Shown here piece after piece: positions 3,234 through 63,427 of a DNA stretch of 64,000 bases. The position numbers were made by a program, and so were the translations under genes. The stretch covers positions 10,456 through 74,455 of the forward strand of contig DATFRR010000010.1 of NCBI GenBank assembly GCA_035263025.1, in the 5' to 3' direction. This stretch comes from Micromonosporaceae bacterium. Lineage in GTDB: Bacteria > Actinomycetota > Actinomycetes > Mycobacteriales > Micromonosporaceae. The stretch's first letter is position 1. Each line of letters opens with the position of its first letter. The notes beneath the pieces were generated by a model. The model was not told the origin of the DNA and made no database searches. It worked only from the letters and a program-made list of their open reading frames with translations.

Positions 3234-3989
3234 TCAGGCCTCGGTTGCCTCGATCGCGTCGAGGTCGCGAACCGCGTAGCGGTGGTGCTCCCACTCCTCT
3301 TCGAGGATCGTGTGGAGGCACGACAGGGTGGTCTCCGGGTAATCGGGTGCCCACGGGTTCGTACGCGCCACCGCCAGCTCGTCCGACGTGACGGTCGCCA
3401 GGAAGTCGTGCATCATCGCGACGCGACCCGCCCGGGCCTCCAGTACGTCGGCGTATGCGGGCGTACCCGTCACGAAGATTGACATGTCCAAGCCGTCCCG
3501 GTCGGCACCGGCGTTTGGTTGCCCGATCGGGTGGTACGGCTGCTCGAGTCCGAGGATCGCGCGGCCCAGCCACGTGTCGGTGGCCATGACCAGGTGCCGC
3601 AGCGTCTGCGCGAATGACCACTCGCCACCCACTGAAACGTCGACCGTGCCGGCCGGCATCGCCGCGACGCGCTCGAGCGTTTCCGCCCATGTGCGCTGGA
3701 GCGCCGCCCAGGCCGCGCGCAGACCGTCCGGGTCTGCGGCGCGTCGTTCGGCACGGCCGGGAAAGCGGCGGTTGAGTTCGGCGTCGACGAACGGGGCCAC
3801 GTCGACGCCGTTGACGCGCAAGACGTTCTCGCCTTCCAACAGCCACGGCGCGTCGATGTCCGCCCCTGATACGTCAACCGCGCGCATCACGATGTCGGAC
3901 AGGTCGGATCCGACGAAGCGGGCGCCACGAAGGTCCACGCCAACGAAGTGCGCTCCCTGCAGGTCATCGGCTCGGGTGAAGTTCGCCAT
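3234..3989 (-). CDS. Pentapeptide-repeat + DinB-like fusion protein
   Basis: The N-terminus has A(D/N)LxG repeats: ADDLQGAHFVGVDLRGARFVGSDLSDIVMRAVDVSGADI. The C-terminus is a helical bundle with HLVMATDTW...EEEWEHHRY, DinB-style His residues. The RBS is AAAGGAGA. Confidence 0.75.
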   Translation of the reverse strand: MANFTRADDLQGAHFVGVDLRGARFVGSDLSDIVMRAVDVSGADIDAPWLLEGENVLRVNGVDVAPFVDAELNRRFPGRAERRAADPDGLRAAWAALQRTWAETLERVAAMPAGTVDVSVGGEWSFAQTLRHLVMATDTWLGRAILGLEQPYHPIGQPNAGADRDGLDMSIFVTGTPAYADVLEARAGRVAMMHDFLATVTSDELAVARTNPWAPDYPETTLSCLHTILEEEWEHHRYAVRDLDAIEATEA

Positions 3990-4371
3990 GACGTCTCCTT
4001 TGTCGAGCGCGGCGGCCGGCGCACGCTAGCCGCTGAAGCGGGCACGAGTTGGCATTGTCCTAAACGATGCGCACCGCTGTCGACCTCGGCGATGCGTCAT
4101 GTTCGGCGCGGTCCGGGCGGTGACCTGGCGAAGATCACGTGGGCGAACCGTCATTGATCACGAGCCTGGCGCGACCGGCACCGTTGTGACTGATGTGCCG
4201 GACGGGGGTCACGCTCACCGTTGTCAAATGTGGCCGGCTTAGCGCCGGATGCCGCGGCGCACGCACACGCGACAGGCACATTCAGCGTTCGACTGAGGTG
4301 GCTGGCTACGCCGTCTAGCGTTGATCGAATTGAACGAACTTCCGACACGGAGCCGTGAGGCGGGGTGAAGC

Positions 4372-53178: not shown

Positions 53179-53907
53179 TTAGCGTGGCACATCGCCGGCC
53201 GTCGCGTGCTCGGCGGCGGCGAACACACCCAGTGGGTGATCCAACGAGGCCGCCGGCGCGACGGCGGTAATCAGTAGGCCATCCACCGCCATCCAGCGGC
53301 CGCTGCATGTGCCTCGGGGGGAGCCGACCGCAACCGGGTCATCATGCGGCGTCAGCGTTGCGACGAAAGAGTTCTCGTTCAAGTTCAACGCTATCTCCGC
53401 GTCCTCAAAGCCGAGCCACGCGCGCATGAGTGGATACCACGCCTTGTAAACGGACTCCTTGGCACTAAAGAGCAATCGATCCCAGCGCACCGCTGGCACC
53501 GCATCGGCGAGCCGAGACACCGCGACACGCTCGCGGGACGTCAACACCGTTGAGACCAACGCGTTTGGCAGCGGCTCGTTGGGCTCGGCGTCGATGCCGA
53601 TCGTCCGTACTATCGCAGCCCTGGCGACCGCCGCTGCGCGGTAGCCGTCGCAATGGGTCATGCTTCCGACGATTCCGGGTGGCCAGAGCGGATCCCGACC
53701 GGTTCCCGACGGGATCGGTACGGGTGGCAGGCCGAGCGCGGCGAGTGCGCGGCGCGCACAATGTCGCACTGTCGCGTACTCCCGACGACGCCGATCGACA
53801 GCGCCGCTGATGAAGGCCTCCTCTTCTGGGAACAGGACGGCGGCGGATTCATCCGTGGTCGCCTCCGCGCTGACCACCGCCGTCGGCAGGATCGCCTCGA
53901 TGGTCAT
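53179..53907 (-). CDS. 4'-phosphopantetheinyl transferase, Sfp/EntD (PptT-like) type
   Basis: Motifs are RRREYATVRHCARRAL, WPPGIVGSMTHC, GIDAEP and FSAKESVYKAW. The start is ATG 53907, preceded by GGAGGAAG. Confidence 0.85.
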   Translation of the reverse strand: MTIEAILPTAVVSAEATTDESAAVLFPEEEAFISGAVDRRRREYATVRHCARRALAALGLPPVPIPSGTGRDPLWPPGIVGSMTHCDGYRAAAVARAAIVRTIGIDAEPNEPLPNALVSTVLTSRERVAVSRLADAVPAVRWDRLLFSAKESVYKAWYPLMRAWLGFEDAEIALNLNENSFVATLTPHDDPVAVGSPRGTCSGRWMAVDGLLITAVAPAASLDHPLGVFAAAEHATAGDVPR

Positions 53908-54632
53908 CGTCTTCCTCCGGGTGGCGGACACGTGTTCGTGGGACTGCGCGGCCGGACTCCGGCCCGCGGCACTAAGACCTCATACGATCTTGTGCCCACT
54001 AGGCGTTCAATGTGTCAGCTTGGCGAAACGGATTGCGCGGCGACACGGTGACACGTTGACGGCACGGCCGGGGGATCCAGCGGACCGCGGGCACAGGGCC
54101 GGCGGCAGAGGCCGCTCGACGGACGCGGCCGAGATGACTCGCGCCACACGTTCGGCGCGATGGTCCACATTGGCCAGTCGCCGTGTTCTACGGCTTGTCG
54201 ATCATCGTCGCATTGATCCGTGATCGGATTGGCGCTCCTACAAGTTGTCGTGACAGCGTGACGCGTGCAAGGCGAGTTGGTTGATGTGATCCGTCTCGCG
54301 TACCCCCGCTCTGGATCCCGGTTTGATCTTTGTTTTTCCGCAATTTTCGTCCGGCGCTTCCTGGCTGCCGATACCGTTCCGGTTGATGAGGTTGCGTGCT
54401 GAACGAGTATGTGGAATGCGGTTGAGCGTTCGGCGCAGCGCATCTTCGGTTGCCGGTGTGTACAGGAGACGACGCACCAGGAGACGGTGACACAAGGACT
54501 TCCACGAATTCGACGGTCGTGTCCCGCGAATCGCCAGAATCGTCGACAACATCGATGCCGGTCGGTATCCGCGCGGTGGCATTGGCTGGCGTCCTGTCCA
54601 CCTTTCTTTCCCGCTGGGAGGCATGAGCGCTC

Positions 54633-57254
54633 GTGCTGGACAAGTCTGTCGATGTACTGACGGTTGATCTGGCTGAGTCGACGACCAGTGACGGCACCCT
54701 CGTGGGCCCGGCCGGCACCGAACAGATCCTGGCCGCGGTGCTGGCCGACGTGCTGGATGTCGATCGGGTGTCGGTTGACAGCCACTTCTTCGACGACCTG
54801 GGCGCCAACTCGCTGACGATGGCGCACTTCTGTGCGCGCGTTCGAAAGCGGGACGACCTGCCGTCGGTGTCGATGAAGGACATCTATCGCAGCCCAACCG
54901 TCAAGAGTCTCGCGGAAGATCTCGCCGAGGAAGTTCCCGAGCCGACCGAATCCGCTGTCGCCACGTCGACCGAGGCAACGGTTGAGGTGCCGACCCGCGC
55001 CAGCACGCGACAATACGTGCTCTGCGGTGTGCTTCAGCTCTTGACCTTCCTCGCGTACACCGTGCTGCTTGCTCTCATTGTCACGGCCGGGTACGAGTGG
55101 ATCGCCTCGGGCACCAGCATTCTCGACTACTACATCCGAGCCGTGATCGTCGGCGCGGCCACGTTCGTCGCACTGTGCGTCCTGCCGATCGCCGCGAAGT
55201 GGACGCTGGTCGGCCGATGGAAGTCGCGCGAGATCCGGATATGGAGCCTCGGGTACGTACGGTTCTGGATCGTCAAGACATTGGTGCAACGCAATCTTCT
55301 GGTGCTGCTGTTCGTCGGCTCGCCGCTCTACCCGCTCTACCTGCGGGCGCTGGGTGCCAAGGTCGGGCGCGGCGTCGCAATCTTCTCCAGATCGGTGCCG
55401 GTGTGCACCGACCTGTTGACCATTGGCGACGGCACCGTCGTTCGCAAGGACTCACACCTCACGTGCTACCGCGCTCACGCTGGCGTGCTCCAGACGGGGC
55501 CAGTGACGCTCGGAAGGGACGTATTCGTCGGAGAGATGACGGTCGTCGACATCAACACCTCGATGGGCGACGGCGCGCAACTCGGCCATACGTCCTCGCT
55601 TCACCCCGGACAGGCCGTGCCGGCCGGCGAACACTGGCACGGATCCCCCGCGCAGAAGACCGAGATGAACTATCGGACGGTCGAGCCCGCCAAGTGTGGT
55701 GTCATGCGGCGCGTCAGTTATTCGCTGATGCAGGTGTTGATCCTGTTGGTGATCGACGTGCCGATCGCGCTCGCCGCCGCGGACGTTCTGCTTCGTGAAA
55801 TCCCCCGCCTTGGACGGCTCGAGTTCGGACCGCACGTCCTGACGAGCTGGACGTTCTACGTCGTCGGGCTGGTGGTCTCGTTCGCACTGTTCTTCGGCAC
55901 GACCATCGTTGGCCTGGTGCTTGTGACGACGATTCCTCGGCTGTTCAACCTCGCGCTCAAGCCGGGCAAGACATATCGGCTGTACGGCATCCACTACGCG
56001 ATCCACCGAGCGGTCGAGCGCCGGACCAACAGTCAGTTTTTCAAGACGCTCTTTGGCGACAGCTCCAGCATCGTCGGCTACCTCCGCTTGATCGGGTATC
56101 GGCTCCGGAACGTCGAGCAAACCGGGTCGAACTTCGGCACGTACCTCAAACACAGCAATCCCTACCTGAGTGCGGTCGGCAGCGGAACGATGGTGGCGGA
56201 CGGGCTGTCCATCATCAACGCCGACTTCTCGAGCAGTTCATTCCGGCTGAACCCGGCGACCATTGGGCCACAGAACTTTCTCGGCAATGCCATCGCCTAT
56301 CCGTCGCAGGGCAAGACCGGCGACGACTGCCTGATCGCAACCAAGGCGATGGTGCCGATCGAAGGCGAAATCCGGGAGGGCGTTGGGCTTCTGGGCTCGC
56401 CGAGCTTCGAGATCCCTCGGTCGGTCCAGCGCGACACCCAATTCGATCATCTGCGGACCGGACCGTCGCTGCATCGCGCGCTCACCGCAAAAAACAGGCA
56501 CAACGCCGTCACCGCCGCCGGCTACTTGTTTGGCCGATGGATGCATGTCTACGGGCTCACCTTGCTGGCGTGGACAACGACCCGCTTGTACGGCCTTCAG
56601 GGCACCTGGGTGATCGCACTGGCGTCGATCCTGACCCTCGTGTGGACCACCCTCTTCTTCGCCGTCGTGGAGCGTGCCGTGCAGGTGTTCTTGCCGTTGC
56701 GACCGCTCTACTGCTCGATCTACGACCGCAGGTTCTGGCGACACGAACGGTTCTGGAAGAGCGCGGCGGTGACGATGCACCTCCACGCCTTCGACGGCAC
56801 GCCGTTCAAGTCGGGCGTGTGGAGATTGCTGGGCGTACGAATGGGCCGGCGGGTGTTCGACGACGGGTGCGGGATTCCGGAAAAGACGCTCGTGGCGATC
56901 GGCGATGACACGACCCTCAACGCGGGTTCGACCATCCAGTGTCACTCGCAGGAGGACGGCGCCTTCAAGTCCGACCGCATCACGATCGGCGCCGGCTGCA
57001 CGGTGGGCGTCGGCGCCTGGGTCCACTACGGCGTGACGATGGGCGACGGAGCGATGCTCGGCCCCGATGCGTTCCTGATGAAGGGCGAGGACGTCCCACC
57101 GCAGGCGCGGTGGGCCGGCAACCCGGCCCGGGACCTGCGCGATGACCGTGCACTCACCATGCAGCTCCGTGGCACCGGCAGCGACAGCAGGCAGCCGGCC
57201 GCGGTGACGGCCGACACGTCCGCGGCGACTGGAGGAACACGATGCAACGGGTAA
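54633..57254 (+). CDS. Carrier (T) domain fused to a six-TM, triple hexapeptide-repeat membrane domain of the Pls/PosA NRPS-terminal type; no adenylation domain
   Basis: 873 aa. The T domain carries HFFDDLGANSLTMAH, with the Ser codon at 54810-54812. Three pairs of hydrophobic segments lie at about aa 128-188, 358-433 and 630-685. Each pair is followed by a soluble left-handed-beta-helix-like block, for example LGAKVGRGVAIFS...IGDGTVV...VTLGRDVFVGE and LGVRMGRRVFDD...IGDDTTLNAGSTI...ITIGAGCTVGVGAWV. Confidence 0.8.
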   Translation: MLDKSVDVLTVDLAESTTSDGTLVGPAGTEQILAAVLADVLDVDRVSVDSHFFDDLGANSLTMAHFCARVRKRDDLPSVSMKDIYRSPTVKSLAEDLAEEVPEPTESAVATSTEATVEVPTRASTRQYVLCGVLQLLTFLAYTVLLALIVTAGYEWIASGTSILDYYIRAVIVGAATFVALCVLPIAAKWTLVGRWKSREIRIWSLGYVRFWIVKTLVQRNLLVLLFVGSPLYPLYLRALGAKVGRGVAIFSRSVPVCTDLLTIGDGTVVRKDSHLTCYRAHAGVLQTGPVTLGRDVFVGEMTVVDINTSMGDGAQLGHTSSLHPGQAVPAGEHWHGSPAQKTEMNYRTVEPAKCGVMRRVSYSLMQVLILLVIDVPIALAAADVLLREIPRLGRLEFGPHVLTSWTFYVVGLVVSFALFFGTTIVGLVLVTTIPRLFNLALKPGKTYRLYGIHYAIHRAVERRTNSQFFKTLFGDSSSIVGYLRLIGYRLRNVEQTGSNFGTYLKHSNPYLSAVGSGTMVADGLSIINADFSSSSFRLNPATIGPQNFLGNAIAYPSQGKTGDDCLIATKAMVPIEGEIREGVGLLGSPSFEIPRSVQRDTQFDHLRTGPSLHRALTAKNRHNAVTAAGYLFGRWMHVYGLTLLAWTTTRLYGLQGTWVIALASILTLVWTTLFFAVVERAVQVFLPLRPLYCSIYDRRFWRHERFWKSAAVTMHLHAFDGTPFKSGVWRLLGVRMGRRVFDDGCGIPEKTLVAIGDDTTLNAGSTIQCHSQEDGAFKSDRITIGAGCTVGVGAWVHYGVTMGDGAMLGPDAFLMKGEDVPPQARWAGNPARDLRDDRALTMQLRGTGSDSRQPAAVTADTSAATGGTRCNG

Positions 57255-59734
57255 CCGCCGCCGGTCGGGAATACTGGACGAGCGCGTTGGCGTCTGGCGG
57301 CTTGGCGTCAGTTCCACGGTGGACGGTGAACCCAACTCCCGGCGTGGCAACGTTCGAGGTTGTCATCCCACACGACACCGTGGCGGCCCTGCACGGGCTC
57401 GCTGGCGCGATGGGCATCCGACTCAGCGCGGTCTTGCTAGCGGCGCACGCCAAGGTGATTGCCGCGCTGTGCGGCGAAGCTCACGTCACGACCGGCTATG
57501 TTGCGACGGACGGCGACGATCCGCTGCCGTGCGTACTGACGACCGACGCTGACTCGTGGCGTGGTCTGCTGCTCGACTCTCATCGCGCGCAGGCACACCT
57601 GTTGCCGCACAAGGACTTTCCGATCCACGACCTGATGCGCGAACTGCACGTGTCCGGGCCGCTGTTCGACACGATGTTCGACGCGACCGGTGGCGATGGA
57701 AGTCTTGCCGACGAGGTGGCATTGCGGGTTGGTGCCGTACATCGGGGCGAGGAGCTAGTGCTGCGAACGCGGTACCGCACCGATGTGCTCGACGCCGACA
57801 GTGCCGCGCGAGTCACCGGCTACTACCTCTCCGCGCTCGCGCAGATCGCTACCGAGCCGGATGCCGAGCATCGTCGGCGCAGCCTAGTCTCCGCCGAGGA
57901 GCACGATTTCCAGCTCGACGCGCTTGCCGGGCCGCATCGGGAGCTGCCCGATGGGCGAGTGCATGAGCTTTTCGAAGCGCGGGTACGCCAGTGCCCGGAT
58001 TCCGTGGCAGCTGTGCACGGCAACGTCCGGTGGACCTATCGAGAACTCAACGCCCGCGCCAACCGCTTGGCGCGCGCCTTGCTGGCAGAGGGGCTGCGAC
58101 GCGAAGACGTCGTCGCGGTGGTGACCGAGCGCAACCTCGATTGGATGGCCGCTGTTCTCGCGATCTTCAAGGCTGGTGGGGCGTACCTCCCGATCGAGCC
58201 GCACTTTCCGAGCGATCGCATCGCGACTACGTTGTCGCGCGCCGATTGCCACCTCGTGCTGACCGAACCTGCCAGCACCAAAACGCTAAGCCAGGCCGTC
58301 GCGTCGCGAGCCGACGTTCACACCATGTTCATCCAGGACGCCTACGAAACGGACCGTGCCGAGGACGATCTCGACATTGCGGTTGCGCCGGATCAGCTCG
58401 CGTACATCTACTTCACCTCCGGGTCGACAGGCGAGCCGAAGGGTGCGATGTGCGAGCACGCCGGGATGCTGAACCACATGTACGCCAAGATCGACGATCT
58501 GGACATCGCCGAGGGGTCGATCGTCGCTCAGACTGCCCCACAGTGCTTCGACATCTCCTTGTGGCAGCTCATCTCCGCGGTCCTGGTCGGCGGACAGACG
58601 TTGATAGTCGAGCAGGACGTGATTCTGGACGTACCGCGGTTCACCGACAAGGTTGTCGACGCCCGGGTCGCGGTGCTGCAGGTGGTCCCGTCCTACCTCG
58701 AAGCCGTGGTCTCGCACCTGGAGCAGAGCCCGCAGAAGTTGGCCGACCTACGGTGCGTCTCGGTTACCGGTGAGGCGCTGAAGAAGGAGCTCACCGAGCG
58801 TTGGTTCGCCATCGAGCCAGACATCAAGCTCGTCAACGCGTACGGGCTGACCGAGACCTCGGACGACACGAACCACGAGGTGATGGAAGGCGTACCGAAT
58901 GGGTCAGGTGTGCCGCTCGGCCGGCCGGTCAACAACGTGCGCGTCTACATCGTCGACGAGCACCTGTCGCCCGTTCCGCTCGGCGCGCCCGGCGCGATCG
59001 TGTTCTCCGGTGTGTGTGTCGGACGCGGCTACGTGAACGATCCGGAGCGCACTCGGCTGGCCTTCATGGCCGACCCGCATCGCATCGGCGAACGCCTTTA
59101 CGTGGGCGGTGACTACGGCCGCTGGCGACCCGACGGCAAGGTCGAGTTCCTCGGTAGACATGATTCTCAGGTCAAAATCAACGGCTTCCGCATCGAGATC
59201 GGGGAGATCGAGAACACCCTCCTGCGTGTGCCCGACGTGCGCGACGGCGCCGTGGTGATCACCGAGCGCATCGATGCGAGCAAGCATCTCGTGGCGTTCT
59301 ACTCGGGCACGCGGCCACTGGAACTGGACATCCTGCGGAGCCGACTCTCCGAGTCGCTACCCGAATACATGGTCCCGAGCGCGTTTCATTGGCGAGACAC
59401 TCTGCCACTCACCGCCAACGGGAAGATCGACAAGAAGTCCTTGGCCGCGCTAGCCAGCGACCTAGACATTCTCGACGACCGGGATCCGCCCAGCACGCCC
59501 ACCGAGCAGCGCCTCGCGATCGCCTGGGCGCGAGTGCTCGGAATCTCCGAGGATCAGATCGGTCGCCAGGATCATTTCTTCGACCGCGGCGGCACGTCGC
59601 TGGCCGCGGTGAAGCTCGCGATCACGCTGGACCGCGTGGTGTCACTCAAGGACGTTACACAGCATCCCGTGCTCGCCGATCTGGCCGGCGTCATCGACGG
59701 TCTGCGTACCGGCGAACTCCTGGCCTCTTCTTGA
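57242..59734 (+). CDS. NRPS: C-terminal half of a condensation domain (no HHxxxDG) + adenylation domain + carrier domain; no TE/R domain
   Basis: 830 aa. The A-domain cores are LAYIYFTSGSTGEPKG, FDISLWQ, NAYGLTET, GDYGRWRPDGKVEFLGRHDSQVKINGFRIE and NGKIDKK. The T domain is FFDRGGTSLAAVKL. It overlaps the upstream gene by 13 nt. Confidence 0.9.
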   Translation: MQRVTAAGREYWTSALASGGLASVPRWTVNPTPGVATFEVVIPHDTVAALHGLAGAMGIRLSAVLLAAHAKVIAALCGEAHVTTGYVATDGDDPLPCVLTTDADSWRGLLLDSHRAQAHLLPHKDFPIHDLMRELHVSGPLFDTMFDATGGDGSLADEVALRVGAVHRGEELVLRTRYRTDVLDADSAARVTGYYLSALAQIATEPDAEHRRRSLVSAEEHDFQLDALAGPHRELPDGRVHELFEARVRQCPDSVAAVHGNVRWTYRELNARANRLARALLAEGLRREDVVAVVTERNLDWMAAVLAIFKAGGAYLPIEPHFPSDRIATTLSRADCHLVLTEPASTKTLSQAVASRADVHTMFIQDAYETDRAEDDLDIAVAPDQLAYIYFTSGSTGEPKGAMCEHAGMLNHMYAKIDDLDIAEGSIVAQTAPQCFDISLWQLISAVLVGGQTLIVEQDVILDVPRFTDKVVDARVAVLQVVPSYLEAVVSHLEQSPQKLADLRCVSVTGEALKKELTERWFAIEPDIKLVNAYGLTETSDDTNHEVMEGVPNGSGVPLGRPVNNVRVYIVDEHLSPVPLGAPGAIVFSGVCVGRGYVNDPERTRLAFMADPHRIGERLYVGGDYGRWRPDGKVEFLGRHDSQVKINGFRIEIGEIENTLLRVPDVRDGAVVITERIDASKHLVAFYSGTRPLELDILRSRLSESLPEYMVPSAFHWRDTLPLTANGKIDKKSLAALASDLDILDDRDPPSTPTEQRLAIAWARVLGISEDQIGRQDHFFDRGGTSLAAVKLAITLDRVVSLKDVTQHPVLADLAGVIDGLRTGELLASS

Positions 59735-59757: not shown

Positions 59758-60759
59758 ATGTCGTCCTCTTCCGCAATACAGCTGATCGACGTGGACCGCC
59801 AACCAGGCAGGCCGCCGATGATGCAGGTCGACCAGCCGGCAGATGCGCCGGCGTGGGCGACCGAGCACCGGGATGGATTGCGGGCTCTCGTCGCCGTGCA
59901 CGGCGCAATCCTGGTCCGCGGCCTCGGGCTGCATGACGGGGCCGAGATCGCGATGGTGTTCCGCAACCTGTCCAACAGCCTCATGACAGAACGAGAGGCC
60001 TTTGCGCCGCGCCGGATCTATGCCGACGGCGTGTACTCGTCCGCGACGTGGCCGGCGAACCAGCCGATGTGCATGCATCACGAACTGAGCTACGCGCTCG
60101 AAGTGCCGAGCCTGATGCTGTTCGCGTGCGTCACGCCGCCGTCGCAGGGCGGCGCGACCGGCGTGGCCGACTCACCTAGCGTGCTGCGCGCACTGCCGGC
60201 TGAGTTGACCGAGCGCCTGCGCCGTGATGGTTGGCTGCTCACTCGCAACTACAACGACGACATCGGGGCGTCGATCGGCGATGCGTTCGGCACCGACGAT
60301 CCCAGCGCGGTGGAGGCCTATTGCCGCGCGAACGCGATCGACTTCGAGTGGCAGCCCGATGGCGGACTGCGCACTCAGCAACGCCGCGCCGCCGTGGTGC
60401 CTCACCCCGTCACCGGCGAGCCCTGCTGGTTCAACCAGATCGCCTTCCTCAACGAGTGGACCATCGCTCCGGAGATCCGTGAATACCTCGTCGACATGTA
60501 CGGCGAGGACGGCCTGCCATTCAACACCCGCTTCGGCAACGGTGATCCGATTACGGAGGACACCGTCATGCTGCTCAACGGGGTGTACGAGGCGAACACC
60601 GCCCGGGAACCGTGGCGGGCGGGCGACCTGATGCTGGTCGACAACATCCGCACCGCGCACAGCCGGGAAGCCTACGAGGGACCGCGAGAAGTGCTCGTCG
60701 GCATGGCGGACGCCGTCCGCCTCGACAACTCACCGACTGGCGAGGTGACGGCCGCATGA
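59758..60759 (+). CDS. TauD/TfdA-family Fe(II)/2-oxoglutarate dioxygenase, SyrP-like
   Basis: The motifs are MHHELSY (HxE) and the distal His in DNIRTAHSR. The overall pattern resembles NRPS-associated amino-acid beta-hydroxylases. The RBS is GAAAGGA. Confidence 0.8.
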   Translation: MSSSSAIQLIDVDRQPGRPPMMQVDQPADAPAWATEHRDGLRALVAVHGAILVRGLGLHDGAEIAMVFRNLSNSLMTEREAFAPRRIYADGVYSSATWPANQPMCMHHELSYALEVPSLMLFACVTPPSQGGATGVADSPSVLRALPAELTERLRRDGWLLTRNYNDDIGASIGDAFGTDDPSAVEAYCRANAIDFEWQPDGGLRTQQRRAAVVPHPVTGEPCWFNQIAFLNEWTIAPEIREYLVDMYGEDGLPFNTRFGNGDPITEDTVMLLNGVYEANTAREPWRAGDLMLVDNIRTAHSREAYEGPREVLVGMADAVRLDNSPTGEVTAA

Positions 60760-61826
60760 CCGCGATCGAAACAGCTGCCGGGCAAGGCTCCACCAACCGG
60801 CGCAGCGCCGTACCGCCGTTCGCGATGGTCTCGGGCGCGCAGGTCCAGCAGGTCTTGGACGGGCGCGAGAAGGAGATTGTGTCGTTGGTCGAGGCGACGT
60901 ATCGGCTACACGGCGCTGGCGATTCCGTGAACCCGCCGTCGTACTTTCTCCGTTTCCCCGACCGTCCGTCCGCCCGCATCATCGCGCTTCCCGCGTCGAT
61001 CGGCGGTGACGTTCGGGTAGACGGACTGAAGTGGGTTTCCAGCTTTCCCGACAACGTCAGCATCGGTGTGCCGCGCGCATCAGCTGTACTCATCCTGAAC
61101 GATCACGACACGGGCTACCCGTTTGCATGTCTCGAAGGCTCGATCATCAGCGCGACGAGGACCGCCGCGTCGGCGGCGCTCGCCGCGGACTGGCTGAGCC
61201 GGCAACGGCGACGCCCGCGGAGCGTGGGGTTCATCGGAGTCGGTCTGATCGCGCGTTACATCCACGCGTTCATGGCCAGCACCGGCTGGACATTCGACGA
61301 GATCGGCGTCCACGATCTGTCCCCGGACAGCGCATCCGGTTTCCGCGGCTATTTGGAACGCACAGATGTCGCCGGCCGGATCTCCATTTACGACCGCCCG
61401 GAAGACCTGATCCGGTCCAGCGACATGGTGGTGTTTGCCACCGTCGCGAGCCGTCCGTACGTCACGGACGCGTCGTGGTTCGACCACAATCCAGTGGTGT
61501 TGCACGTGTCGCTTCGCGACCTGGCGCCTGAGATCCTGCTCGGCTCGACCAACATCCTCGACGACGTTGACCACTGCATGAAGGCCGACACGTCGCCGCA
61601 TTTGGCAGAACAGCTCACTGGCAATCGTGACTTCCTGACCGGCACGCTGGACGACGTGATGTCCGGCCGGGTAACGGTGCCCGCGCACCGGCCGGCGGTG
61701 TTCTCGCCGTTCGGTCTCGGCGTGCTGGATCTGGCCGTCGGCAAGTTCGTCTACGACGAGGTGGCCCGGTCCGGCGAGCTGCGTGTCGTTGACAACTTCT
61801 TCCACGAGTTACATCGCTACGGCTAA
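60756..61826 (+). CDS. sbnB: SbnB-type NAD-dependent dehydrogenase (ornithine cyclodeaminase/mu-crystallin fold) for L-2,3-diaminopropionate synthesis
   Basis: The OCD fold has the Rossmann motif VGFIGVGLIARY, and the gene is immediately paired with an SbnA-type gene. An ATGA overlap links it to the dioxygenase gene. Confidence 0.75.
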   Translation: MTAIETAAGQGSTNRRSAVPPFAMVSGAQVQQVLDGREKEIVSLVEATYRLHGAGDSVNPPSYFLRFPDRPSARIIALPASIGGDVRVDGLKWVSSFPDNVSIGVPRASAVLILNDHDTGYPFACLEGSIISATRTAASAALAADWLSRQRRRPRSVGFIGVGLIARYIHAFMASTGWTFDEIGVHDLSPDSASGFRGYLERTDVAGRISIYDRPEDLIRSSDMVVFATVASRPYVTDASWFDHNPVVLHVSLRDLAPEILLGSTNILDDVDHCMKADTSPHLAEQLTGNRDFLTGTLDDVMSGRVTVPAHRPAVFSPFGLGVLDLAVGKFVYDEVARSGELRVVDNFFHELHRYG

Positions 61827-61861: not shown

Positions 61862-62848
61862 ATGCCAGTCATTTCCGTTCCTGAGGGCTTCAACGAAGAG
61901 GAGCTCTACGTCGACCTTCAGTCGATGTTCGGGCACTCGCTCTACCTGAAGTGTGAGGGCTTTAACTTCGCCGGGTCGATCAAGCTCAAGGCCGCGGCCG
62001 AGATGGTCGAGGCAGCGGAGCAGGACGGAATTCTTCGGCCCGACTCGATCCTGATCGAGTCGTCATCGGGGAACCTGGGCGTGGCGCTCAGCATGATTGC
62101 CGCGAGCAAGGGCTACCAGTTCGTGTGCGTGACAGATTCGCGGTGCAACCTGACCACCAGGCGTGCTATGGAGGCGCTGGGCAGCCGGGTGCACATCATC
62201 AACGATCCGGACGCGAAGGGCGGTCTCCTTGGTGCGCGCCTCGACTACGTCCGCGAGCAGTGCGAGAACGATGACCGGTACGTGTGGTTCAACCAGTACG
62301 CCAACCCACACAACTGGCTGGCGCACTACCGCCGTACCGCACCGGCGATCGCCCGGAAGTTCCCTAACCTGGACGTACTGTTCGTCGGCGCGGGTACGAC
62401 CGGGACGTTGATGGGCTGCGCGCGCTTCTTCCGGGACTGGCACTGGCCGGTGCGGATCGTCGCGGTGGACAGCGTCGGGTCGGTGACGTTCGGTGGGACG
62501 TCGGGTCGCCGGATGATCCCCGGACTGGGTACGAGCGTACGGCCGCCGATCCTCGACGAGGCCTACGTTGACGACGTCGTGCGAATCGAGGAAGCGGATA
62601 CCATTCGTGCCTGCCATCGCCTGGCCAGAAGCGGATTCCTGTTCGGCGGATCCACCGGAACGATTGTCAGTGGCGCCGTCCAATGGCTAGGCCAGCACAA
62701 CGGCCATGGCCTCACGGCCGTCGCCATCGCACCAGATCTTGGCGAGCGCTACCTGGACACGGTGTACCAAACGAACTGGCTCCAGGATCTCTACGGCGAA
62801 GAGGTGCTCGACACCGCCGAGCTGACCGCGGGCGCCCGGACCGGTTGA
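61862..62848 (+). CDS. sbnA: SbnA-type PLP-dependent enzyme (cysteine-synthase fold) for L-2,3-diaminopropionate synthesis
   Basis: The motifs are LKCEGFNFAGSIKLK (PLP Lys), ESSSGNLG, WFNQYANPHNW, IVAVDSVGSVTFGG, PGLGTSVRPPIL, GGSTGTIV and PDLGERYLDTVY. They are collinear with S. aureus SbnA as I remember it. The RBS is GAGGAGG. Confidence 0.85.
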   Translation: MPVISVPEGFNEEELYVDLQSMFGHSLYLKCEGFNFAGSIKLKAAAEMVEAAEQDGILRPDSILIESSSGNLGVALSMIAASKGYQFVCVTDSRCNLTTRRAMEALGSRVHIINDPDAKGGLLGARLDYVREQCENDDRYVWFNQYANPHNWLAHYRRTAPAIARKFPNLDVLFVGAGTTGTLMGCARFFRDWHWPVRIVAVDSVGSVTFGGTSGRRMIPGLGTSVRPPILDEAYVDDVVRIEEADTIRACHRLARSGFLFGGSTGTIVSGAVQWLGQHNGHGLTAVAIAPDLGERYLDTVYQTNWLQDLYGEEVLDTAELTAGARTG

Positions 62849-62884: not shown

Positions 62885-63427
62885 GTGACCGTGTTCGAGC
62901 CGGGCTGTGTGATCGACCGGCGTGAAGTGCTGCACGGGCTGCCGTGGCTCGTAGTGCCTGTTCAGGTCGTGCGCGACGATGGCGAAGAACTGGCCGTCTA
63001 CGTGGCCGAGGGAACGCCGTTCACGTTTCCCGATCATCCATTCGGTCGCCACCCGTGGAGTCAGCGCACGCGTTGGACGGACACCAGCGTGTTACAGGTG
63101 CACCGCGCGGGTGACGCGCACGCCGTGTGGGGCATGTACGAGCAGGGCGTCTTTGCCGGGTGGTATATCAACTTCCAAGCACCGCTACACCGATGGAGCG
63201 GCGGTTTCGACACGCTTGATCACGGCGTGGACATGTGGATGCCGAACGGCGCGAGCGAGTGGCAGTGGAAGGACCTCGAAGACGTAGCGCGGCTGGTGCA
63301 GGATGGCCGCATTACCGAGGACGAGGCTCGTGACGTGTGGTCCGAGACGGAACGCGTCGCTAGTTCACTGCGTCGCGGCGCTCGGTGGTGGCAGCACTGG
63401 GACGCGTGGAGTCCCGGCCATCGCTAG
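62885..63427 (+). CDS. DUF402-family protein (FomD-like nucleotide phosphatase fold)
   Basis: The sequence WYINFQAPL...FDTLDHGVDMWM...WQWKDLEDV...GRITEDEA is the DUF402 pattern. The start codon is GTG. Confidence 0.7.
   Translation: MTVFEPGCVIDRREVLHGLPWLVVPVQVVRDDGEELAVYVAEGTPFTFPDHPFGRHPWSQRTRWTDTSVLQVHRAGDAHAVWGMYEQGVFAGWYINFQAPLHRWSGGFDTLDHGVDMWMPNGASEWQWKDLEDVARLVQDGRITEDEARDVWSETERVASSLRRGARWWQHWDAWSPGHR

What the first reader, a model, noticed from the sequence alone, without database searches (positions are those of the whole stretch)
57242..59734. Half-condensation / A / T protein whose specificity pocket carries two acidic residues (predicted diamino-acid substrate)
The first ~215 aa align with the C-terminal subdomain of condensation domains only (EYWTSAL...LPxx...LSAVLLAAHAKVIAAL...GYVATDG...HKDFPIHDL...PLFDTMF). 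The N-terminal subdomain with HHxxxDG is absent, so this piece cannot catalyse condensation and may be a docking or scaffold remnant. For the A domain I aligned the core motifs by eye to GrsA-PheA numbering and obtained D235-I236-W239-Q278-S299-T301-A322-D330-D331-K517, that is DIWQSTADDK. The anchor points were as follows. FDISLWQ gives positions 235, 236 and 239. The residue before VVPSY gives 278. LRCVSVTGE gives 299 and 301. NAYGLTETSDD gives 322, 330 and 331. NGKID gives 517. Asp at 330 and 331 at the pocket floor fits a short cationic side chain. To my recollection a published 2,4-diaminobutyrate code (pyoverdine PvdL) is DIWELTADDK, which would be an 8/10 match. That recollection and my manual alignment both need verification. 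With SbnA/SbnB three genes downstream, L-Dap is the obvious candidate, with Dab as the alternative. The protein ends right after its T domain, with no release domain.
Basis: partly seen in the sequence, partly recalled or inferred. Interest (0 to 1): 0.6.

Follow-up and report, generated by a model that had tools for sequence, protein, structure and literature searches.

The report
Diaminopropionate-loading NRPS with half C-domain
This gene encodes a complete amino-acid-activating enzyme that most likely loads the unusual amino acid L-2,3-diaminopropionate. It is the only such enzyme available to a neighbouring polylysine-synthetase-like membrane polymerase that has lost its own. The pair belongs to a five-gene cassette found in hundreds of actinomycete genomes, and its product is unknown.

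Summary
ORF 57242-59734 (830 aa) has three parts: an isolated C-terminal lobe of a condensation domain (residues ~1-225, no HHxxxDG), a complete A domain and a T domain.

The specificity code is DIWQSTADDK. I confirmed it by gap-free alignment to the crystal-defined pocket residues of SulM-A3. That domain has code DVWEMNADD and was solved with L-Dap bound; its two Asp residues hold the beta-amine.

The code is identical in 80 of 84 orthologues that are only 63-72% identical overall. The half-C fold is confident (pLDDT 88). Its only structural matches are NRPS C domains, and in the model it packs on the A core as in C-A didomains. This is the known 'C*' situation of ACV synthetase.

The context gives the finding its meaning:
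- The upstream gene is a T + Pls/PosA-type polymerase with no A domain.
- P0001 holds the only NRPS-type A domain in this 94%-complete genome.
- A few relatives keep a decayed cis A domain on the polymerase.
- The cassette polymerase / C*-A-T(-TE) / TauD / SbnB / SbnA recurs in at least 570 species genomes.

Most likely function: a trans-acting L-Dap loader of a split poly-Dap-type synthetase. The product and the role of the protein's own T domain are inferred, not shown.

The parts
57242..59734 (+). Gene for the C*-A-T protein (P0001, 830 aa). The ATG start overlaps the stop of the upstream polymerase gene by 13 nt, and a GGAGGA RBS lies 6 nt upstream.
   Evidence: Residues 1-28 are conserved in orthologues (R9 F11 W12 L16 G19 G20 P25 R26 W27), so the ATG is the real start rather than the later start used for the 802-aa database entry.
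57242..57916 (+). C* domain: an isolated C-terminal lobe of a condensation domain (residues 1-225). It has no N-lobe and no HHxxxDG.
   Evidence: Pfam Condensation profile 391-453 matches residues 160-222; profile 191-284 matches residues 5-94 in orthologues. AF2 pLDDT 87.7, pTM 0.86. Foldseek finds only NRPS C/Cy domains, TMq 0.63-0.76. Mean identity to orthologues is 48-61%.
57971..59476 (+). Complete adenylation domain (core residues 244-640, small subdomain 641-745). Motifs A3 YFTSGSTGEPKGA, A7, A8 and A10 NGKID are intact.
   Evidence: (TIGR01733 387 bits, cut-off 317).
58547..58567 (+). FDISLWQ: code positions 1-3 (D437, I438, W441, equivalent to GrsA 235, 236, 239).
   Evidence: Aligned to FDVSVWQ of SulM-A3 (Asp2337, Val2338, Trp2341); residue numbers.
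58862..58867 (+). D541-D542: code positions 8 and 9 (GrsA 330, 331), the predicted anchors of the substrate's side-chain amine.
   Evidence: Aligned to Asp2443/Asp2444 of SulM-A3, which lie 2.8 and 2.6 A from the beta-amine of bound L-Dap. Invariant in 80 aligned orthologues.
59423..59425 (+). K728: the A10 catalytic lysine (GrsA K517).
   Evidence: invariant.
59510..59692 (+). Carrier (T/PCP) domain, residues 757-817. The phosphopantetheine serine is S786 in FFDRGGTSL (codon 59597-59599).
   Evidence: PP-binding 32.5 bits; motif conserved; S786 invariant.
54633..57254 (+). Partner gene: T domain plus Pls/PosA-type membrane polymerase domain (873 aa), with no A domain.
   Evidence: TIGR02353 738.6 bits (cut-off 423) over residues 130-832 and PP-binding at 32-95. 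Paired hydrophobic segments. It is the only such domain in the genome.
59758..60759 (+). TauD-family Fe(II)/2-oxoglutarate dioxygenase, 23 nt after the C*-A-T gene.
   Evidence: PF02668, 137 bits. It is always the next gene. It is fused to the T domain in L061 and P0059.
60756..61826 (+). SbnB-type dehydrogenase (L-Dap synthesis).
   Evidence: TIGR03944 414 bits, cut-off 327.
61862..62848 (+). SbnA-type PLP enzyme (L-Dap synthesis).
   Evidence: TIGR03945 387 bits, cut-off 350.
53179..53931 (-). Sfp-type phosphopantetheinyl transferase, divergent from the cassette.
   Evidence: PF17837 plus PF01648. It is adjacent to the cassette in only a few other loci.

Best explanation
P0001 is the amino-acid-activating subunit of a split Pls/PosA-type (cationic homo-polyamino-acid) synthetase.

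Shown:
- The protein is C*-A-T. It has an isolated, catalytically empty C-lobe, a fully intact A domain with pocket DIWQSTADDK, and an intact carrier domain.
- It is translationally coupled to an A-less T-polymerase gene and is followed by TauD, SbnB and SbnA.

Inferred:
1. SbnA/SbnB make L-2,3-diaminopropionate.
2. The A domain adenylates L-Dap, with Asp541/Asp542 holding the beta-amine as in SulM-A3.
3. The A domain transfers L-Dap to its own T domain and, in trans, to the T domain of the polymerase. That protein's three membrane-embedded tandem domains then make beta-isopeptide bonds, as Pls does for lysine.
4. The C* lobe does no chemistry. It is kept as the platform that packs on the A core, and perhaps as a docking face for the partner carrier or the TauD enzyme.
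5. The TauD enzyme acts on the aminoacyl group (or a growing chain) held on this protein's own T domain. That T domain may serve as a tethered primer or acceptor.

The TE found in two thirds of orthologues is accessory and has been lost in this lineage.
For: Architecture. The full-length model superposes on Txo1 C-A crystal structures at 3.0-3.5 A over 670-684 columns, so the C* lobe sits on the A core in the canonical way.

Substrate:
- The pocket region's best PDB match is the L-Dap-bound SulM-A3 core (133 bits).
- Every published SulM-A3 pocket residue aligns without a gap in or next to the motifs that carry the code positions. This gives D-I-W-Q-S-T-A-D-D against D-V-W-E-M-N-A-D-D.
- The paper reports 'mode 3' homologues with Ile at position 2 and Gln at position 4, and reports that N2411T (Thr as here) improves Dap activity.
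- The code is identical in 80 of 84 orthologues at 63-72% overall identity.
- SbnB and SbnA score above their equivalog cut-offs and are present in nearly all loci.

Loader role:
- The polymerase has a T domain with a conserved Ser but no A domain.
- In the 94%-complete genome, P0001 is the only A domain above the TIGR01733 cut-off. There is no other Pls domain and no condensation domain.
- The two genes are adjacent in every locus that has flank.
- Four Pseudonocardiaceae-type relatives keep a cis A domain on the polymerase. It has a degenerate A3 loop (no Lys), no A10 or small subdomain, and a CHPA-type Glu at code position 3. This looks like a decaying original A domain.

TauD on the T domain: two independent X-A-T-TauD fusions.

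TE accessory: at least 3-4 well-supported gains or losses on the tree.
Against: - No biochemical data exist for any member and no product is known.
- The pocket is 8/10 identical to the PvdL Dab module, so Dab is not excluded.
- If the protein only loaded the polymerase in trans, it would not need its own conserved T domain or a TE. Its T domain must therefore have a further role that I cannot define.
- Beta-hydroxylation of a free Dap thioester would give an unstable hemiaminal, so the TauD step does not fit a simple poly-Dap product.
- The genome is a 320-contig assembly, so a second A domain could lie in the missing 6%.
- AF2 is trained on C-A structures, so the modelled C*-A packing is weak evidence.
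Confidence: 0.62

Rival explanations
1. The architecture is the same, but the A domain activates L-2,4-diaminobutyrate (as the PvdL Dab module does) rather than L-Dap. Dap made by SbnA/SbnB would enter as the free acceptor or in another way.
For: The code is 8/10 identical to PvdL DIWELTADDK, against 7/10 to SulM-A3 when the Lys is counted. The best NCBIfam hit is the last (Dab) module region of the PvdL-type model PRK05691.
Against: The pocket region scores 133 bits to SulM-A3 against 95 bits to PvdL. Position 4 is Gln, not the Glu kept in PvdL; the SulM paper lists Gln-4/Ile-2 relatives as Dap-type and finds Glu-4 too far from Dap to matter. Dap-synthesis genes, not Dab-synthesis genes, are in nearly every cassette.
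Confidence: 0.13
2. P0001 is a self-contained one-module line. It loads, hydroxylates (TauD) and delivers a single modified residue that starts or caps the chain. The polymerase's T domain is loaded by a different adenylating enzyme elsewhere in the genome.
For: It has its own conserved T domain, a TE in two thirds of orthologues, and TauD fusions to that T domain. Eighteen further weaker matches to the A-domain model, probably ANL-family ligases, exist in the genome. A carrier-tethered primer has a precedent in streptothricin ORF18/ORF19.
Against: None of the other ANL hits reaches the NRPS A-domain cut-off; the best scores 204 bits against a cut-off of 317. No second A-domain gene recurs in the cassette across 80 loci. 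The decayed cis A domains show the polymerase once had its own A domain and lost it only in this cassette context.
Confidence: 0.17
3. The gene is a decaying remnant of a larger NRPS, with a truncated C domain and a lost TE, and has no function.
For: Half of the C domain and the TE are missing. A same-genus genome (G009) has a frameshifted or broken copy of the cassette.
Against: The reading frame is intact and all catalytic motifs are present. There are 186 invariant columns across 80 orthologues, an invariant pocket, and conserved C* residues. The same truncation is present in all 84 orthologues, so it is ancestral and maintained.
Confidence: 0.03

Closest known systems
SulM module 3 A domain (SulA3) of sulfazecin biosynthesis, PDB 9N1U/9N1V (PMC12042044)
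   Same: It is the best structural-database match for the pocket region. Both have Asp-Asp at code positions 8 and 9, Asp at position 1, Trp at position 3 and Ala at position 7. The Dap genes (SbnA/SbnB homologues) and a TauD-family enzyme are in the same cluster. This is the published 'mode 3' diamino-acid binding.
   Different: SulA3 sits in a full C-A-T-TE module of a three-module NRPS that makes a monobactam. Here the C domain is halved, the TE is absent, and the partner is a Pls-type polymerase. Code positions 2, 4, 5 and 6 differ (I/Q/S/T against V/E/M/N).
PvdL last module (L-Dab) of pyoverdine synthesis, PDB 9LCP/9UP2
   Same: The code DIWELTADDK matches at 8 of 10 positions. It is the top full-length fold match.
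   Different: It activates Dab, keeps Glu at position 4 and has a full C domain. It was crystallised with an MbtH-like protein, and none is encoded in this genome.
C* domain of ACV synthetase module 1, and the ADA domain of Lys2-type reductases (PMC7884236)
   Same: An isolated C-lobe of about 230 aa directly before the first A domain, lacking the N-lobe and HHxxxDG. It is conserved, and in ACVS it is required for the activity of that module.
   Different: I found no detectable sequence relationship beyond the shared C-domain fold. ACVS is a three-module enzyme. Here the protein is a single module that serves a separate polymerase.
Pls (epsilon-poly-L-lysine synthetase), PDAP synthetase of S. 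albulus PD-1, and PosA (delta-poly-L-ornithine synthetase)
   Same: The partner protein carries the family-defining TIGR02353 domain after a T domain. A diamino acid is the predicted monomer. Dap is the known monomer of PDAP.
   Different: Those enzymes are single A-T-polymerase polypeptides whose A domains bind the side-chain amine through Glu at code position 3 ('mode 1'). Here the A domain is on a separate protein of canonical-NRPS ancestry, uses the Asp-Asp mode, brings a second T domain, and comes with a TauD enzyme.
Streptothricin ORF18 (T-C) / ORF19 (stand-alone A) beta-lysine oligomerisation
   Same: A split system in which an aminoacyl group tethered on a separate carrier serves as the primer for isopeptide oligomer growth.
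   Different: The amide bonds there are made by the A domain itself. There is no Pls-type domain and the substrate differs.
SyrP-type and siderophore Asp beta-hydroxylases that work on carrier-tethered residues, some recruited by degenerate C-like 'interface' domains (from my own knowledge, not checked here)
   Same: A TauD-family enzyme encoded next to, or fused with, an A-T unit that carries a non-catalytic C-like domain.
   Different: The TauD protein here has no close characterised relative; its best PDB hits are At3g21360 and an unnamed protein. Its substrate is unknown.

Membership tests
NRPS adenylation domain (TIGR01733 / ANL superfamily) | Score above the curated cut-off and intact core motifs A3, A7, A8 and A10 with the catalytic Lys | tested here: met
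   387.1 bits against a cut-off of 317.4. Motifs are present and conserved. K728 is invariant.
'Mode 3' (SulM-A3 type) L-Dap-binding A domains | Asp at specificity-code positions 8 and 9, plus Asp at position 1 | tested here: met
   Alignment to the published SulA3 pocket residues, with no gap in or next to the code-bearing motifs. DD is invariant in orthologues.
'Mode 3' (SulM-A3 type) L-Dap-binding A domains | Measured preference for L-Dap | not testable with these tools
   Needs ATP-PPi exchange or a hydroxamate assay.
Catalytic condensation domain (PF00668) | N-lobe with the HHxxxDG active-site motif | tested here: not met
   Only profile positions ~191-453 are represented. An in-frame stop lies 96 nt upstream. 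No aligned HHxxxD in 84 orthologues.
C* / isolated C-lobe domain (ACVS type) | C-lobe fold alone, placed directly N-terminal to the A domain of a first module | tested here: met
   AF2 pLDDT 87.7. Foldseek hits are all C/Cy domains, TMq about 0.75 and TMt about 0.4. The position in the protein is shown.
C* / isolated C-lobe domain (ACVS type) | Required for activity of the adjoining A-T unit | not testable with these tools
   Needs a deletion variant. Conservation only suggests that selection acts on it.
Pls/PosA family CHPA synthetase | TIGR02353 membrane polymerase domain in the same polypeptide as A and T | tested here: not met
   P0001 has no such domain. It lies on the upstream protein, which has no A domain.
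Pls/PosA family CHPA synthetase | A-domain pocket with Glu at code position 3 ('mode 1') | tested here: not met
   Position 3 is Trp. The Glu is seen only in the decayed cis A domains of four relatives, as FDFSVEEIW.
Peptidyl carrier protein | GGxS motif with the phosphopantetheine Ser | tested here: met
   FFDRGGTSL, with S786 invariant. PF00550 at 32.5 bits.
Terminal NRPS module with type I thioesterase | C-terminal TE with GxSxG | tested here: not met
   The protein ends 13 residues after the T domain. A TE is present in 55 of 84 orthologues.

The most novel reading that the evidence does not exclude
The cassette may be a two-carrier polymerising machine of a kind not yet described. In this reading, Dap held on the C*-A-T protein's own T domain is the covalently tethered acceptor or primer for the Pls-type polymerase, and it is modified there by the TauD enzyme. 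The product would be a branched or hydroxylated Dap polymer. One candidate is the comb-like poly[beta-(L-Dap-L-Dap)] reported from a Streptomyces strain, for which I know of no assigned synthetase. The C* lobe would be the docking face that brings the two carriers together.
Probability: 0.15. Interest if true: 0.75.

Novelty: new variant of a known kind. Interest (0 to 1): 0.58.

Why it matters
Cationic isopeptide polymers such as polylysine, poly-Dab, poly-Dap and poly-ornithine are food preservatives, antimicrobials and cell-penetrating carriers. All known synthetases for them are single A-T-polymerase proteins.

This protein shows that a large and widespread branch of the family has discarded its own A domain. 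It relies instead on a separately encoded module of canonical NRPS ancestry, which brings a different way of recognising Dap (the Asp-Asp mode), a second carrier domain and a dioxygenase. At least 570 species genomes carry the arrangement, mostly Streptomyces and Pseudonocardia.

This points to a new product class that can be reached by expressing five genes. It also supplies hundreds of natural variants of the Dap pocket that monobactam engineers found in only one known pathway. Finally, it offers a simple system for asking what isolated C-lobes do.

Tried and rejected
1. Full-text search for the code strings DIWELTADDK and DIWQSTADDK found nothing. I checked the recollection against PDB sequences instead.

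2. I searched for a hidden N-lobe. An in-frame stop lies 96 nt upstream, no HHxxxD aligns in any orthologue, and the rest of the genome has no Condensation hit.

3. I searched the genome for another A domain that could serve the polymerase. None reaches the NRPS cut-off.

4. An MbtH-like partner, as in the PvdL structures, is not encoded in the genome.

5. A 1652-aa open frame in a same-order genome (G033) looked like a possible polymerase-loader fusion. It is not. Its N-terminal 800 aa have no domain hits and it sits in a PKS context.

6. Literature searches for an A-less or split Pls-type system found nothing in the held library. This is absence in that library only.

7. The PDAP synthetase of S. 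albulus PD-1 is a conventional 1445-aa A-T-polymerase and is not this arrangement.

8. I could not run NRPSpredictor2, SANDPUMA or AdenPredictor. Nearest-neighbour comparison to solved, substrate-bound A domains was the substitute.
Full report
**Observation.**
- Pfam finds AMP-binding at 244-597, AMP-binding_C at 655-728 and PP-binding at 757-817. Condensation matches only residues 160-222, which correspond to profile positions 391-453 of 456.
- NCBIfam gives the NRPS A-domain model TIGR01733 at 387 bits (cut-off 317). The best overall hit is the last-module region (3648-4316 of 4334) of the PvdL-type model PRK05691.
- The ATG is preceded by GGAGGA and overlaps the stop codon of the upstream gene by 13 nt. 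An in-frame TGA lies only 96 nt upstream, so no N-terminal half of a C domain can be recovered by moving the start.
- The database copy of this protein starts 28 residues later. However, residues 1-28 hold nearly invariant positions in 80 orthologues, so the ATG at 57242 is the real start.

**The half condensation domain.**
- In orthologues, Pfam also matches residues 5-94 to Condensation profile positions 191-284. The N-terminal ~225 residues therefore span profile positions ~191-453 with internal shortening, which is the C-terminal lobe only.
- No aligned HHxxxD exists in any of 84 orthologues.
- An AlphaFold2 model of residues 1-243, built on an 81-sequence alignment, is confident (pLDDT 87.7, pTM 0.86).
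- All 50 listed Foldseek matches in the PDB are NRPS condensation or cyclisation domains. TM-scores are 0.63-0.76 normalised on the query but only ~0.35-0.43 on isolated C domains, so the region is half a C domain.
- The full-length model (pLDDT 83) superposes on the Txo1 C-A crystal structures at 3.0-3.5 A over 670-684 columns. The lobe is thus predicted to sit on the A core exactly as the C-lobe does in canonical modules. The caveat is that AF2 learned from such structures.
- The region is under selection, though less strongly than the A domain: mean identity to orthologues is 48% for residues 1-160 and 61% for 161-225, against 74% for the A core.
- This is a known kind of feature. The 'C*' domain of ACV synthetases is an isolated C-lobe of ~230 aa before the first A domain, it lacks HHxxxDG, and deleting it abolishes the activity of that module.

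**The pocket.**
- Motif anchoring gives D437, I438, W441, Q480, S507, T509, A533, D541, D542 and K728, which reads DIWQSTADDK.
- I could not run the usual predictors, so I searched the 183-residue pocket region against all PDB sequences. The best hit is the core of the SulM module-3 A domain (9n1u/9n1v; 133 bits). PvdL follows at 95 bits.
- The SulM paper names its pocket residues: Asp2337, Val2338, Trp2341, Glu2380, Met2409, Asn2411, Ala2435, Asp2443 and Asp2444. In the L-Dap-bound crystal structure, the two last Asp residues sit 2.8 and 2.6 A from the beta-amine, while the Glu is too far away to matter.
- Counting along the HMMER alignment, each of those residues falls on the position I had assigned. 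The only indel is a two-residue one between positions 4 and 5, away from any code position.
- The same paper reports BLAST relatives of this 'mode 3' pocket that all carry Ile at position 2, with several carrying Gln at position 4. It also reports that Asn2411Thr improves activity on Dap. The window protein has Ile, Gln and Thr at those positions.
- The PvdL sequences in the PDB (constructs named E2-C3-A3, the Dab module) read DIWELTADDK in the same alignment.
- The code is identical in 80 of 84 orthologues and differs by Ala-to-Thr at position 7 in the other four, although the proteins are only 63-72% identical overall.
- SbnB and SbnA are above their equivalog cut-offs two and three genes downstream. 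I rank L-Dap first (about 0.8) and L-Dab second.

**Context.**
- The upstream gene (54633-57254) encodes a T domain followed by the Pls/PosA family polymerase domain TIGR02353 (739 bits), with paired hydrophobic segments and no A domain.
- The assembly is 94% complete (4.94 Mb, 320 contigs). In it, this is the only such domain, P0001 is the only A domain above the NRPS cut-off, and there is no other condensation domain and no MbtH-like gene.
- Downstream come a TauD-family dioxygenase, SbnB, SbnA and a DUF402/FomD-like gene. An Sfp-type PPTase is divergent upstream.

**Distribution.**
- P0001 has thousands of database relatives at ~70% identity over 98-100% of its length.
- In the 80 loci fetched, mostly Streptomyces and Pseudonocardiaceae with a few Acidobacteriota, Gemmatimonadota and Burkholderiales MAGs, the order polymerase / C*-A-T / TauD / SbnB is kept wherever there is flank. 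SbnA lies either after SbnB or before the polymerase.
- Within the window's own genus, 9 of 11 other genomes have a match at the threshold used, seven of them spanning nearly the whole protein.

**Variation that informs mechanism.**
1. Fifty-five of 84 orthologues carry a C-terminal TE (GHSxG), 28 end after the T domain like the window, and one (plus database protein P0059) has the TauD enzyme fused to the T domain. On a maximum-likelihood tree, TE presence changes at least 3-4 times on well-supported branches. The TE is therefore dispensable and was lost recently here: relatives at 81% identity have it, while the 94% relative does not.
2. In four of 73 loci in which the polymerase's T domain was found (L003, L006, L043, L083), the polymerase keeps an N-terminal A domain, but it is decayed. 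The A3 loop has lost its Lys (TSDSDGRPTG, ASGSTDRPEG and similar). There is no small subdomain or A10 lysine, and in L003 the core is cut after A5. Its pocket begins FDFSVEEIW, which has the Glu at code position 3 that marks true CHPA synthetases.
3. Eight loci have two or three tandem T domains on the polymerase. The carrier Ser is kept in 79 of 83 T copies.

Together these points indicate a conventional A-T-polymerase ancestor whose own A domain became redundant once a module of canonical NRPS ancestry, related to the SulM-A3 and PvdL Dab modules, took over activation.

**Mechanism proposed.**
- Shown: the domain content, the intact catalytic motifs, the pocket, the gene coupling, the absence of any other NRPS A domain in the assembled genome, and the conservation.
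- Inferred:
  - SbnA/SbnB supply L-Dap.
  - P0001 adenylates it and thioesterifies both its own T domain and, in trans, the polymerase's T domain.
  - The polymerase makes beta-isopeptide bonds as Pls does, using a nucleophile that is not bound to it (the Pls model, from my own knowledge; the finding that rPls itself makes the C-terminal polyol esters, fits it).
  - The fusions suggest that TauD works on what is held on P0001's own T domain. That T domain may act as a tethered primer, as carrier-bound beta-lysine does in streptothricin oligomerisation.
- Not explained: why a simple loader keeps its own carrier, and what the dioxygenase makes. Hydroxylating C3 of an unacylated Dap thioester would give an unstable hemiaminal.

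**Comparison with the known.**
- The protein is a bona fide NRPS A-T unit with a C* domain and a SulM-A3-type Dap pocket.
- It is not itself a member of the Pls/PosA family. It lacks the polymerase domain and the Glu-3 pocket.
- All characterised CHPA synthetases in the literature I could read (Pls, PDAP synthetase, PosA) are single polypeptides.
- I found no description of the split, two-carrier arrangement in the held library.
- The SulM authors state they found the Asp-Asp mode in no known cluster other than sulfazecin. This cassette family is a large natural reservoir of that mode. PvdL also carries the Asp-Asp pair.

**Leads.**
- A branched 'comb-like' poly[beta-(L-Dap-L-Dap)] has been reported from a polylysine-producing Streptomyces (cited). 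A two-carrier Dap system is a candidate source, but nothing here tests that.
- In the S. albulus PD-1 paper, the Dap-synthesis protein NjxB (EXU92121.1) is two accession numbers from an NRPS (EXU92123.1), and the Dap genes are said to lie far from the PDAP synthetase gene. This would fit their belonging to a cassette of this type. I could not check the sequences.

**Verdict.** The feature is real, conserved and functional-looking. Each element (C*, the Asp-Asp Dap pocket, the Pls-type partner) is known. The combination is an undescribed variant of the cationic poly-amino-acid synthetases: a trans-acting C*-A-T loader that serves an A-less polymerase and is coupled to a dioxygenase.

Noticed in passing
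L043:3098-7948, L083:3279-7949, L006:1151-5251, L003:6376-9996: In four Pseudonocardiaceae-type relatives the polymerase keeps a decayed cis A domain. The A3 Lys is lost, there is no A10 or small subdomain, and Glu sits at code position 3. Two or three near-identical tandem T domains follow it. This looks like a snapshot of A-domain loss.
   Followed up: partly
L061:8001-11684 and protein P0059: There are two X-A-T-TauD fusion proteins (1228 and 1197 aa). In them the dioxygenase is fused directly to the carrier domain of the loader.
   Followed up: partly
L001:12503-13252 (TE of a Streptomyces orthologue): The TE carried by most orthologues is far closer to the TE of ObiF1, which from my own knowledge forms a beta-lactone, than to any other solved TE (118 bits against 66 bits or less). 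The catalytic residue here is Ser (GHSSG).
   Followed up: no
L095 (G009:C4:772000-784000), same genus as the window: The cassette appears broken here. The C* lobe and the A-T-TE part lie in different frames, and only a 303-aa fragment of the polymerase is open. This is either a pseudogenised copy or indel errors in a long-read assembly.
   Followed up: no
literature, PMC4668381 Table 1 and section on L-DAP: In S. albulus PD-1 the Dap enzyme NjxB (EXU92121.1) is two accession numbers from an NRPS (EXU92123.1, predicted 'glutamine'). This suggests that the Dap genes of that PDAP producer lie in a cassette of this type, away from the PDAP synthetase gene.
   Followed up: no
PDB 9lcp/9up2 aligned: The PvdL Dab module has Asp-Asp at code positions 8 and 9 (DIWELTADDK). 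The SulM-A3 paper states that this 'mode 3' was found in no known cluster other than sulfazecin.
   Followed up: partly
window 53932-54632: A gap of about 700 nt with no convincing ORF lies between the divergent PPTase gene and the polymerase gene. It is the likely promoter or regulatory region of the cassette.
   Followed up: no
window 62885-63427: A DUF402/FomD-like gene (NF049998, 74 bits, below cut-off) follows sbnA on the same strand. tblastn found no match to it in any of the fetched loci.
   Followed up: no
one search hit list: Pls/PosA-family proteins without an AMP-binding domain (840-1100 aa, some with PG_binding or extra carrier-like N-termini) are very numerous in actinomycete genomes and metagenomes. 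I did not test whether all of them sit next to a C*-A-T gene.
   Followed up: no
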